Assembly (NCBI GenBank): GCA_000008085.1
Contig: AE017199.1
Location: 420,001 to 452,000 of the forward strand
DNA: 32,000 bases
Origin: Nanoarchaeum equitans Kin4-M
Lineage (GTDB): Archaea > Nanobdellota > Nanobdellia > Nanobdellales > Nanoarchaeaceae
Reading direction: 5' to 3'
How positions within the stretch are numbered: the first letter of the stretch is position 1; each line of letters starts with the position of its first letter. Below, piece after piece: positions 12,325 through 13,826 of the stretch. A model generated the notes under the pieces. That model worked only from the letters and a program-made list of their open reading frames with translations. It was not told the DNA's origin and made no database searches. The translations under genes and the position numbers were made by a program.

Positions 12325-13826
<1,502 letters not shown>

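What the first reader, a model, noticed from the sequence alone, without database searches (positions are those of the whole stretch)
13338..13350. The H/ACA candidate's pocket is complementary to a conserved 16S rRNA site in the same window (predicted Psi at U13343)
Guide 3' pocket strand C7583-C7587 (CCUCC) pairs with 16S G13338-G13342 (GGAGG). Guide 5' pocket strand G7549-G7554 (GCCAUG) pairs with 16S C13345-C13350 (CAUGGC). That is 5+6 Watson-Crick pairs flanking an unpaired U13343-G13344 at the base of the upper stem. This is the canonical H/ACA substrate topology (5'-arm, Psi, N, 3'-arm).

A specified 11 nt plus U match in a 1.5-kb rRNA is very unlikely by chance, on the order of 1e-3 even allowing some register freedom.

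The site is the conserved GGUGCAUGGCCGCCGUCAG block. By my manual alignment to the conserved GCAUGGYYGYCGUCAG segment this is about E. coli U1052 in helix 34, and about nt 1019 of this 16S; both numbers are approximate. I vaguely recall that Pyrococcus H/ACA guides target a 16S uridine numbered near 1017, which could be the same site. That is unverified.
Basis: seen in the sequence. Interest (0 to 1): 0.8.

Follow-up and report, generated by a model that had tools for sequence, protein, structure and literature searches.

The report
Unannotated Nanoarchaeum pseudouridine guide for 16S
A 60-base RNA hairpin in the Nanoarchaeum equitans genome has every sequence hallmark of an archaeal H/ACA guide RNA and is predicted to convert one uridine at the ribosome's decoding site (16S U1018, E. 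coli U1052) to pseudouridine, a site already known to be guided this way in Pyrococcus and Sulfolobus, so it is a solid new example of a known mechanism rather than a new one.

Summary
Window 7540-7599 (+) folds into a canonical archaeal H/ACA hairpin. Its pocket forms 5+6 Watson-Crick pairs around unpaired U13343-G13344 of the 16S rRNA. That is 11 pairs against 6 for the next-best 16S site; chance is about 2e-4 to 1e-3.

The window is Nanoarchaeum equitans Kin4-M. U13343 is 16S position 1018, which aligns to E. coli U1052 in helix 34.

The pairing register is fixed independently by published rules for productive archaeal guides: a 10-layer stem up to the K-loop and 14 nt to ACA. A TTTAAA promoter box starts exactly 26 nt before G7540, as it does for three tRNA genes in the window.

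The target sequence is identical over 24 nt to the Pyrococcus abyssi U1017 site guided by Pab19. It is also equivalent to Sulfolobus islandicus U1009, guided by sR136.

The guide is not a detectable Pab19 homologue. It is also missing from the only N. equitans small-RNA survey I could find, which lists a single H/ACA RNA elsewhere in the genome.

Limits:
- No homologues were found.
- No expression data were available.
- The 23S rRNA could not be obtained.

Verdict: a new member of a known kind, of moderate interest. A second H/ACA-like hairpin in the 16S leader (12132-12188) was noticed in passing.

The parts
7514..7519 (+). Box A (TATA-like) promoter element TTTAAA for the guide RNA. It overlaps the T-stretch that follows tRNA-Arg.
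   Evidence: It starts exactly 26 nt before G7540. The same spacing holds for tRNA-Arg (G7433), tRNA-Val (24819, minus strand) and the tRNA-Glu 5' half (G16673, minus strand). This matches the N. equitans promoter rule in PMC3491384. TTTAAA occurs at 0.0015 per nt in the window.
7540..7599 (+). Predicted 60-nt single-hairpin box H/ACA guide sRNA.
   Evidence: MFE fold -30.4 kcal/mol, z = -3.5, 0 of 200 shuffles fold as well. It is one of only two hits in the window to a descriptor coded from published rules; 0.03 expected per 64 kb and 0 hits in 1.42 Mb of control DNA. It is 60% GC in a window that is mostly about 28-34% GC outside the rRNA.
7540..7547 (+). Lower stem, 5' strand. Pairs with 7588-7595: 7 G-C pairs plus U7547.G7588.
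7549..7554 (+). 5' guide strand of the pocket, GCCAUG. Pairs with 16S C13345-C13350.
   Evidence: Duplex energy -8.7 kcal/mol.
7555..7562 (+). Upper stem, 5' strand. Pairs with 7575-7582; the closing pair is G7555.U7582.
   Evidence: Together with the two G.A pairs it makes the 10-layer GA stem (rule from PMC4652768).
7563..7574 (+). K-loop GA-CAAAAAAU-GA with tandem sheared pairs G7563.A7574 and A7564.G7573; predicted L7Ae binding site.
   Evidence: Read directly from the sequence. It resembles the published K-loop descriptor (RA, 4-6 nt, UGA), but the spacer here is 7 nt.
7575..7582 (+). Upper stem, 3' strand.
7583..7587 (+). 3' guide strand of the pocket, CCUCC. Pairs with 16S G13338-G13342.
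   Evidence: Duplex energy -8.4 kcal/mol, beyond the -6.0 cutoff that PMC4652768 gives for this discriminating duplex. Pab19's 3' guide CCCUCCU contains the same core.
7588..7595 (+). Lower stem, 3' strand.
7597..7599 (+). ACA box, 14 nt (7583-7596) after the closing pair of the upper stem and preceded by unpaired U7596. It overlaps the stop codon of the convergent S3 gene (7595-7597, minus strand).
   Evidence: The 14-15 nt rule is from PMC4652768.
7600..7606 (+). T-rich stretch TTTGTTT, the likely transcription terminator of the guide.
   Evidence: PMC3491384 describes T-stretch terminators for N. equitans small RNAs.
12326..13825 (+). 16S rRNA gene that holds the target. It stands alone, with no 23S in the window.
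   Evidence: Rfam SSU_rRNA_archaea, 1392 bits, full length.
13338..13342 (+). Target 5' arm GGAGG (16S positions 1013-1017).
13343..13343 (+). Predicted pseudouridine: 16S U1018 = E. coli U1052 = P. abyssi U1017 = S. islandicus U1009.
13344..13344 (+). Unpaired nucleotide 3' of the target U (G1019, E. coli G1053).
13345..13350 (+). Target 3' arm CAUGGC (16S positions 1020-1025). It begins with the equivalent of the decoding-site nucleotide C1054.

Best explanation
Window 7540-7599 encodes a 60-nt box H/ACA guide RNA of Nanoarchaeum equitans that is absent from the one published small-RNA survey I could find.

Proposed mechanism:
1. The RNA is transcribed from its own TTTAAA box, starting at G7540, and ends in the T-rich run after ACA.
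2. It folds into a lower stem, pseudouridylation pocket, upper stem and K-loop.
3. L7Ae binds the K-loop. [quoted passage not shown]
4. The 5' strand of helix 34 in nascent 16S rRNA pairs into the pocket: GGAGG with CCUCC, and CAUGGC with GCCAUG.
5. U1018 and G1019 stay unpaired at the base of the upper stem, 14 nt from ACA, which places U1018 in the Cbf5 active site.
6. U1018 (E. coli U1052, two bases before C1054 of the A site) is isomerised to pseudouridine.

Shown here: the sequence, the fold, the geometry, the promoter spacing, the statistical significance of the complementarity, and the identity of the target with a site known to be H/ACA-guided in two other archaeal phyla.

Inferred: expression, ribonucleoprotein assembly, catalysis, and presence of the modification in vivo.
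For: Four largely independent lines converge.

(a) Structure. The hairpin folds as required. It is one of only two hits in 64 kb to a descriptor built from published rules: lower stem of at least 7 bp, 10-layer GA stem with K-loop, 14-15 nt to ACA. The expectation is 0.03, and there were 0 hits in 1.42 Mb of unrelated DNA. None of 107 metagenome sequences that match its pockets, K-loop and ACA spacing has a paired upper stem (best 5 of 8, against 8 of 8 here).

(b) Transcription signals. TTTAAA starts exactly 26 nt before G7540, the same as for three tRNA genes in the window and as published for N. equitans. A T-rich run follows ACA.

(c) Target. There are 5+6 Watson-Crick pairs flanking U-G, scoring 11 against 6 for the next-best 16S site, with P about 2e-4 to 1e-3. 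Both arm energies (-8.4 and -8.7 kcal/mol) are beyond the published -6.0 cutoff. Only the register with productive geometry gives this match.

(d) Precedent. The target is identical over 24 nt to the Pab19 target at P. abyssi U1017, which is active in vitro. It is also equivalent to S. islandicus U1009, detected in vivo and guided by sR136.

N. equitans encodes Cbf5: NEQ454 in Randau's table and GenBank AAR39298. The organism was identified from an S3 protein 100% identical to N. equitans uS3/NEQ481.
Against: - No expression evidence. The deep RNA-seq survey of N. equitans says it inspected all intergenic regions, yet it lists a single H/ACA sRNA at 339411-339574 and nothing at this locus. The stored copy of its coverage file is cut off after roughly the first 1,400 genome positions.
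- No comparative support. Relatives with about 65% S3 identity lack synteny and show no similar sequence. A metagenome-wide pattern scan found no homologue. All other contigs carrying this locus are the same strain.
- No Rfam H/ACA family reaches threshold. The best is snoR2 at 21 bits, E = 0.089, and there is no Pab19 hit.
- G7554-C7583 must open for the pairing to form.
- The K-loop spacer is one nucleotide longer than the published descriptor allows.
- The 23S rRNA, 5S rRNA and most tRNAs of N. equitans could not be scanned.
- The descriptor was written after I had seen both hairpins, although its parameters come from the literature.
Confidence: 0.8

Rival explanations
1. It is a real H/ACA guide, but its main substrate lies elsewhere (23S rRNA, 5S rRNA, a tRNA or another RNA). 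The 16S match would then be secondary or incidental.
For: Archaeal H/ACA pockets often serve several targets: up to four in P. abyssi and eight for S. islandicus sR435. The N. equitans 23S could not be obtained, so it was never scanned.
Against: The chance of an equally good canonical hit in a 3-kb 23S is about 5e-4, scaling the analytic rate. The 16S hit falls on a uridine already known to be H/ACA-guided in two other phyla, which a coincidental match would rarely do. A further target would add to the 16S target rather than replace it.
Confidence: 0.07
2. It is a decaying or silent guide gene. The sequence still looks like an H/ACA RNA but is not expressed at useful levels, so U1018 is either unmodified or modified some other way.
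For: It is absent from the RNA-seq catalogue, which reports one H/ACA sRNA after inspecting all intergenic regions. No homologues were found.
Against: All stems are perfectly paired, and the promoter box sits at the exact functional spacing. A decaying gene in a fast-evolving reduced genome would be expected to have accumulated mismatches. Highly structured, GC-rich RNAs are under-represented in that data set, as its author notes for tRNAs.
Confidence: 0.06
3. It is not a guide. The GC-rich hairpin would be a terminator or 3'-end stability element between the convergent tRNA-Arg and S3 genes, and both the H/ACA resemblance and the 16S complementarity would be chance.
For: The hairpin lies between convergent genes and overlaps the S3 stop codon. 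On the minus strand, the complement of the K-loop A-run gives a small hairpin followed by TTTTTT about 25 nt after the S3 stop, and the terminator scan flags it.
Against: A terminator needs no ACA at 14 nt, no tandem G.A pairs exactly 8 pairs above an internal loop, no TTTAAA at -26 on the plus strand, and no 11-nt bipartite match to a known pseudouridine site. The joint chance is far below 1e-5. The H/ACA descriptor matches only the plus strand. A dual role, guide on one strand and S3 terminator on the other, remains possible.
Confidence: 0.03
4. The guide works in a different register, with G7554-C7583 kept paired, and targets 16S U266 (window 12591, E. coli 261).
For: In that register 5+5 pairs (one of them G.U) flank U266. 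G7554-C7583 is paired in the minimum-energy fold of the free RNA.
Against: That register has an 11-layer GA stem and 13 nt to ACA, which is outside the 10-layer and 14-15 nt rules; 7 of the 8 non-productive P. abyssi folds have GA stems of 8, 9 or 11. The discriminating duplex is only -5.4 kcal/mol, weaker than the -6.0 cutoff. Alternative G:U versus G:C closing pairs are documented for Pa35.2.
Confidence: 0.02

Closest known systems
Pab19 / Pfu19 / Pho19 H/ACA sRNA of Thermococcales (Rfam RF02794), the guide for P. abyssi 16S U1017
   Same: It targets the same uridine, in a 24-nt context identical to window 13334-13357. It is also a single H/ACA motif with a lower stem and a 3' ANA box. Its 3' guide contains the same CCUCC core pairing with GGAGG. 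It is active in vitro with Cbf5-Nop10-L7Ae-Gar1.
   Different: Pab19 has a 15-nt 5' guide that pairs further downstream (GCCGCCGUC). It leaves U-G-C unpaired, which its authors call non-canonical. It has a K-turn with an inserted stem-loop instead of a K-loop, an extra 5' hairpin, and an AUA box. The N. equitans RNA pairs canonically right next to the U-N dinucleotide. It gives no hit to the Pab19 covariance model even at E <= 10. It is a functional analogue; common descent is not demonstrable.
sR136 of Sulfolobus islandicus, the atypical H/ACA RNA that guides 16S U1009
   Same: The target site is equivalent according to its authors. The modification is Cbf5-dependent and RNA-guided, was detected in vivo, and was reproduced in vitro.
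   Different: [quoted passage not shown] The N. equitans hairpin has both and is a textbook classic motif.
The 159-nt double-hairpin H/ACA sRNA of N. equitans (Randau 2012; genome 339411-339574)
   Same: Same organism. Same promoter style (TTTAAA starting at -26) and a T-rich terminator. G.A-containing K-turn elements and ACA boxes.
   Different: It has two hairpins, unrelated pocket sequences, and different predicted targets: 16S U234 and U796, and 23S U614. It lies at a different locus.
Pyrococcus '10/5/9, subfamily 65' productive H/ACA motifs (for example Pab91 and Pab40 motif 3)
   Same: The geometry is identical: a 10-layer GA stem, a 5-nt 3' guide, a 6-nt 5' guide and 14 nt to the ANA box. 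The 8-bp lower stem plus one unpaired U matches the arrangement described for Pa40.1.
   Different: Different sequences and targets, and a different phylum. The Pyrococcus sequences were illegible in the stored supplement, so no direct alignment could be made.

Membership tests
Archaeal box H/ACA guide sRNA (classic single-hairpin motif) | A hairpin, internal loop, hairpin fold with a lower stem of 7-9 bp | tested here: met
   7 G-C pairs plus U.G (7540-7547 with 7588-7595); MFE fold z = -3.5; passes the descriptor.
Archaeal box H/ACA guide sRNA (classic single-hairpin motif) | An ANA (usually ACA) box 14-15 nt 3' of the pair that closes the pocket | tested here: met
   ACA at 7597-7599, 14 nt (7583-7596) after G7555.U7582 (rule).
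Archaeal box H/ACA guide sRNA (classic single-hairpin motif) | A K-turn or K-loop with tandem G.A pairs, positioned so that the GA stem has 10 stacked layers | tested here: met
   8 pairs plus G7563.A7574 and A7564.G7573 give 10 layers. The loop spacer is 7 nt against 4-6 in the published descriptor. L7Ae binding itself cannot be tested here.
Archaeal box H/ACA guide sRNA (classic single-hairpin motif) | Bipartite complementarity of the pocket to a stable RNA, flanking an unpaired 5'-UN-3' | tested here: met
   5+6 Watson-Crick pairs around U13343-G13344; P about 2e-4 to 1e-3; arm energies -8.4 and -8.7 kcal/mol.
Archaeal box H/ACA guide sRNA (classic single-hairpin motif) | Accumulation as a stable small RNA | not testable with these tools
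   There is only indirect support: box A at -26 and a T-rich terminator. The RNA is not listed in the RNA-seq catalogue, and the stored coverage file is truncated.
Archaeal box H/ACA guide sRNA (classic single-hairpin motif) | Assembly with Cbf5, Nop10, Gar1 and L7Ae, and guide-dependent pseudouridine formation | not testable with these tools
   A Cbf5 gene exists in N. equitans. No biochemical or modification data cover this site.
Archaeal box H/ACA guide sRNA (classic single-hairpin motif) | Conservation with compensatory changes in related genomes | tested here: inconclusive
   No homologue was found in relatives with about 65% S3 identity or in metagenomes. Other contigs are the same strain.
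Pab19 family (Rfam RF02794) | Match to the family covariance model | tested here: not met
   No Pab19 hit at E <= 10 in 7400-7750. The model is present in the library, since it weakly hit a different hairpin.
Pab19 family (Rfam RF02794) | Guides the helix 34 uridine equivalent to P. abyssi U1017 | tested here: met
   The target sequences are identical over 24 nt and the position aligns to E. coli U1052. This is a prediction, not a measurement.
Pab19 family (Rfam RF02794) | An extended 15-nt 5' guide, a non-canonical UGC bulge, an upstream 5' hairpin and a K-turn | tested here: not met
   Here there is a 6-nt guide within an 8-nt 5' pocket strand, a canonical UN dinucleotide, no 5' hairpin (transcription is predicted to start at the lower stem), and a K-loop.

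The most novel reading that the evidence does not exclude
N. equitans may carry at least two unannotated H/ACA motifs aimed at the decoding centre of the 16S rRNA encoded in this same window.

The first is the free-standing guide for the A-site uridine U1018 (E. coli 1052).

The second is a hairpin with the same 10-layer, 14-nt geometry at 12132-12188. It sits only 5 nt downstream of the predicted start of the 16S primary transcript, upstream of the processing stem. Its 3' guide AUCCAA pairs with UUGGAU immediately 5' of U939, the equivalent of E. coli 966 and yeast m1acp3-pseudouridine 1191.

If that hairpin acts on its own transcript, as a guide or as a folding chaperone, I know of no described precedent for an H/ACA motif encoded in cis in a pre-rRNA leader; I did not search the literature for one.
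Probability: 0.15. Interest if true: 0.65.

Novelty: new member of a known kind. Interest (0 to 1): 0.38.

Why it matters
If confirmed, three things follow.

1. It raises the H/ACA count in this "minimal" archaeon, which currently stands at one published sRNA.

2. It extends RNA-guided pseudouridylation of the helix 34 uridine next to decoding nucleotide C1054 to a third archaeal lineage. The three lineages use three different guide designs: a textbook canonical hairpin here, a long-guide non-canonical hairpin in Thermococcales, and a stem-less atypical RNA in Sulfolobales. That pattern would suggest the modification is under selection while the guides turn over. It also gives a clean substrate pair for comparing how the designs position the same uridine.

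3. An organism that has lost RNase P, most of its metabolism and RsmA/Dim1 would still be keeping a dedicated 60-nt gene for a single pseudouridine, which says something about the value of that modification at 90 °C.

It does not reveal a new mechanism.

Tried and rejected
1. Rfam at gathering and permissive thresholds. No H/ACA family reaches threshold on the guide. The best is plant snoR2 at E = 0.089 and there is no Pab19 hit.

2. Synteny-based search for relatives using the adjacent S3 gene. The species-representative genomes returned only distant DPANN loci at 34-38% identity. Three relatives at about 65% identity have S3 in a different neighbourhood and show no similarity to the guide.

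3. Metagenome-wide scan with a pocket, K-loop and ACA geometry pattern. All 107 matches are chance hits with unpaired stems. It is useful only as a negative control.

4. Strain variation. Ten contigs carrying the identical S3 are at least 99.97% identical to the window, and the guide is unchanged in all of them.

5. N. equitans 23S rRNA. A viral-contig scan with two 23S snippets taken from Randau's table found nothing. No paper gave the position of the gene.

6. Expression data. The stored copy of Randau's genome-wide coverage file stops after roughly the first 1,400 genome positions.

7. Building a covariance model from validated Pyrococcus guides. The alignment is illegible in the stored supplement, so I coded the published rules as a descriptor instead.

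8. Two-strand RNAcofold of guide plus target. This is uninformative because substrate pairing inside the pocket crosses the lower stem, a pseudoknot the algorithm cannot represent.

9. Alternative registers and 1 or 3 unpaired target nucleotides. None comes near the canonical hit. The best is U266 at 9.5, with non-productive geometry.

10. The published N. equitans H/ACA sRNA as a possible guide for the same site. Its pockets are unrelated.

Full report
**Observation**

On the plus strand, 7540-7599 reads GCCCCGC UU GCCAUG GUCGGCAU GA CAAAAAAU GA AUGCCGAU CCUCC G GCGGGGC U ACA. CCUCC (7583-7587) is complementary to 16S GGAGG (13338-13342). GCCAUG (7549-7554) is complementary to CAUGGC (13345-13350). 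U13343 and G13344 lie between the two arms. The polarity is the one an H/ACA substrate needs: the target's 5' arm pairs with the guide's 3' pocket strand, and the target's 3' arm pairs with the guide's 5' pocket strand.

Rfam places a complete archaeal 16S at 12326-13825 and finds no 23S in the window, so U13343 is 16S position 1018. Aligning this 16S to an annotated E. coli 16S puts it at U1052, with G1053, C1054 and A1055 in register.

**Is it more than chance?**

An explicit scan requires a U, one further unpaired base, and contiguous pairing outward on both sides. It scores this site at 11 Watson-Crick pairs. The next-best 16S site scores 6. The best hits anywhere else in the 32-kb window, on either strand, score 9.5 but have only 2 pairs on one arm.

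The probability of an 11-pair canonical hit somewhere in the 16S is 5.5e-4 for shuffled pockets and 1.3e-3 for random GC-rich pockets. It is 0 in 5000 for a dinucleotide-shuffled 16S and 2.4e-4 analytically. Trying other registers, or 1 or 3 unpaired nucleotides, gives nothing comparable. The best alternative is U266, with 10 pairs including one G.U, and it appears only if G7554-C7583 stays closed.

**Organism**

The adjacent ribosomal protein S3 is 100% identical to uS3 (NEQ481) of Nanoarchaeum equitans Kin4-M. This fits the composition: the window is about 31% GC outside its RNA genes, while the isolated 16S is 68% GC. Ten contigs from independent sequencing runs are at least 99.97% identical to the window and carry the hairpin unchanged.

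**Is the hairpin a real H/ACA guide?**

Four features were tested against published criteria.

1. Fold. The minimum-energy structure is lower stem, internal loop, upper stem (-30.4 kcal/mol, z = -3.5).

2. Geometry. Toffano-Nioche et al. (PMC4652768) found that 14 of the 15 productive P. abyssi folds have a "GA stem" of 10 stacked layers, counted from the pair closing the pocket to the second sheared G.A pair of the K-turn or K-loop. All productive folds have 14 or 15 nt from that closing pair to the ANA box, and the 3' guide is usually 5-6 nt. There are 8 pairs plus G7563.A7574 and A7564.G7573, which makes 10 layers, and 7583-7596 is 14 nt. The 8-bp lower stem followed by one unpaired U before the box is the arrangement that paper describes for Pa40.1.

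 If G7554-C7583 stays paired, as in the free-RNA fold, the numbers become 11 and 13, which are outside those rules. So the geometry rule selects, independently of the target, the register that gives the 16S match. Alternative G:U versus G:C closure of the pocket has a precedent in Pa35.2.

3. Specificity of the motif. I coded the published rules as a descriptor and scanned both strands. It hits exactly two places in the window, 7540-7599 and 12132-12188. The expectation is 0.03 per 64 kb in resampled sequence, and there were no hits in 1.42 Mb of unrelated real DNA. The descriptor was written after I had seen both hairpins, but its parameters come from the literature.

 A separate control supports this. 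Of 107 metagenome sequences matching the guide's pocket strands, GA...UGA and ACA spacing, none has a complementary upper stem (at most 5 of 8, against 8 of 8 here).

4. Transcription signals. Randau (PMC3491384) describes N. equitans small-RNA promoters as a TTTAAA box 26 nt upstream of the start, with a T-stretch terminator. In this window TTTAAA starts exactly 26 nt before the mature 5' end of tRNA-Arg, tRNA-Val and a tRNA-Glu 5' half. These are expected to be leaderless because the organism lacks RNase P. TTTAAA also starts exactly 26 nt before G7540, the first base of the lower stem. The hexamer occurs at only 0.0015 per nt. TTTGTTT follows the ACA.

**Energetics**

By RNAduplex, the arm formed by the target's 5' side and the guide's 3' strand is -8.4 kcal/mol, and the other arm is -8.7. 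PMC4652768 finds that the first of these is the discriminating duplex, with a cutoff of -6.0 kcal/mol. Its energies were computed with RNAsnoop, so the comparison is approximate. The alternative U266 pairing gives -5.4 and fails.

**What is known about the site**

Muller et al. (PMC2377435) showed that the single-motif sRNA Pab19 directs pseudouridylation of P. abyssi 16S U1017 (P. furiosus 1005) in vitro. In vivo detection was obscured by a reverse-transcriptase pause. The target printed in the supplement of PMC4652768...GAGAGGAGGUGCAUGGCCGCCGUC, is identical to window 13334-13357, and the modified U is the one in GGAGG-U-GC. The sites are therefore homologous.

The S. islandicus pseudouridine map (PMC11077068) detects pseudouridine at 16S U1009. 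It assigns that site to the atypical H/ACA RNA sR136 and states that it is equivalent to P. abyssi U1017. That paper's table lists no yeast or E. coli counterpart for the site. No pseudouridine data exist for N. equitans 16S in the modification study I could read.

**Relationship to Pab19**

The two guides share the CCUCC core of the 3' guide, as they must for the same target, but otherwise differ. Pab19 has a 15-nt 5' guide that pairs with GCCGCCGUC further downstream. It leaves U-G-C unpaired, carries a K-turn with an inserted stem-loop and an extra 5' hairpin, and ends in AUA.

The N. equitans RNA pairs with the six bases immediately after U-G, has a K-loop, and is predicted to start at its lower stem. 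Rfam 15 contains a Pab19 model (RF02794; seen), and the guide gave no hit to it at E <= 10. I therefore treat it as a functional analogue whose common ancestry cannot be shown.

**Has it been described?**

[quoted passage not shown] Its predicted targets are 16S U234 and U796, and 23S U614. The supplementary table has no entry at this locus, and that RNA's pockets are unrelated. Later papers I could search cite only that RNA for Nanoarchaeota. Within the searchable literature the guide is unreported.

This cuts both ways. A study that says it inspected every intergenic region did not list it, so expression is unproven. The stored copy of its coverage file is truncated.

**Gaps**

I found no homologue. 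The species-representative genome set has only distant relatives. Three relatives at about 65% S3 identity lack synteny. The metagenome scan returned only chance hits.

A two-strand cofold cannot model the complex because its topology is a pseudoknot.

**Rival readings**

A terminator or stability hairpin between the convergent tRNA-Arg and S3 genes is conceivable. The complement of the K-loop A-run does give TTTTTT about 25 nt past the S3 stop. But that reading explains none of the plus-strand-specific features. A silent relic gene and a guide with additional 23S targets cannot be excluded.

**Conclusion**

The most likely account is an unannotated canonical H/ACA guide that directs pseudouridylation of 16S U1018 (E. 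coli U1052) in N. equitans. The mechanism and the site are both known, so it is a new member of a known kind and of moderate interest. It does show the same decoding-site uridine being served by three differently built guides in three archaeal lineages.

The second hairpin, in the 16S leader, is the more unusual item and deserves its own follow-up.

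Noticed in passing
window 12132-12188 (+), within the 16S leader: A second H/ACA-type hairpin with the same geometry as the main guide. It has a 7-9 bp lower stem, the closing pair G12147.U12171, a 10-layer GA stem (including one U.U layer), the K-loop GA-UUAAU-GA, 14 nt to ACA (12186-12188), and z = -3.1. 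It starts 5 nt after the predicted 16S transcription start (TTTAAA at 12101-12106, so start at A12127) and lies upstream of the processing stem. It is the only other descriptor hit in the window. Rfam gives only weak sub-threshold hits to archaeal H/ACA families: Pab19 at 18.7 bits, and HgcG at E = 0.06. Its best 16S target is U939 (window 13264), which aligns to E. coli 966, the m1acp3-pseudouridine site of eukaryotes. That pairing is only 6+2 pairs, with P about 0.017 and -5.0 kcal/mol, weaker than the published cutoff. The target is unresolved because the 23S was not available.
   Followed up: partly
window 12229-12250 and 13832-13853 (+): A perfect 22-bp complement between the 16S 5' leader (GAGCCCGGCACAGGGAGACCGC) and the 3' trailer. 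This is presumably the processing stem from which 16S is excised. The roughly 200-nt leader is GC-rich throughout and also contains a 10-bp UUCG-capped hairpin at about 12197-12220.
   Followed up: partly
window 16616-16673 (-): An intergenic GC island missed by ARAGORN and Rfam. On the minus strand it reads as a split tRNA-Glu(UUC) 5' half: acceptor and D arm, an anticodon loop UUUUCGA, then a GC-rich tail and TTTT. TTTAAA starts exactly 26 nt before its G1. Split tRNA genes are known in N. equitans.
   Followed up: partly
window 7566-7571 (A-run of the K-loop), read on the minus strand: The complement of the guide's K-loop is TTTTTT preceded by a short hairpin, about 25 nt downstream of the S3 stop codon, and the terminator scan flags it. 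The guide gene may also serve as the S3 transcription terminator. Likewise, the T5 run that should terminate tRNA-Arg (7512-7516) overlaps the guide's box A.
   Followed up: partly
window 12591 (16S U266, E. coli 261): A weaker alternative pairing for the main guide: 5+5 pairs with one G.U, available only if G7554-C7583 stays closed. That register has a GA stem of 11 layers and 13 nt to ACA, and the arm energy is -5.4 kcal/mol.
   Followed up: yes
window 19439-20923 (-): A 494-aa NAT10/TmcA-type RNA cytidine acetyltransferase ORF. It contains the N-terminal and helicase domains but only the first 38 or so residues of the GNAT acetyltransferase domain. It may be one half of a split gene, as occurs for several N. 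equitans proteins. Its neighbours are also RNA-modification or translation genes: Kae1/TsaD, a radical SAM enzyme, aIF5B, and a methyltransferase just downstream of the 16S.
   Followed up: no
L124 (JGI 3300014713, contig Ga0169447_106538), junction at window 7427: This contig matches the window from S3 through the guide and tRNA-Arg. It then continues into a different gene (an OB-fold tRNA_anti-codon domain protein) instead of S19. Several other assemblies break inside tRNA-Arg at window 7477-7486. This is either a structural variant or an assembly chimera at a repeated tRNA segment.
   Followed up: no
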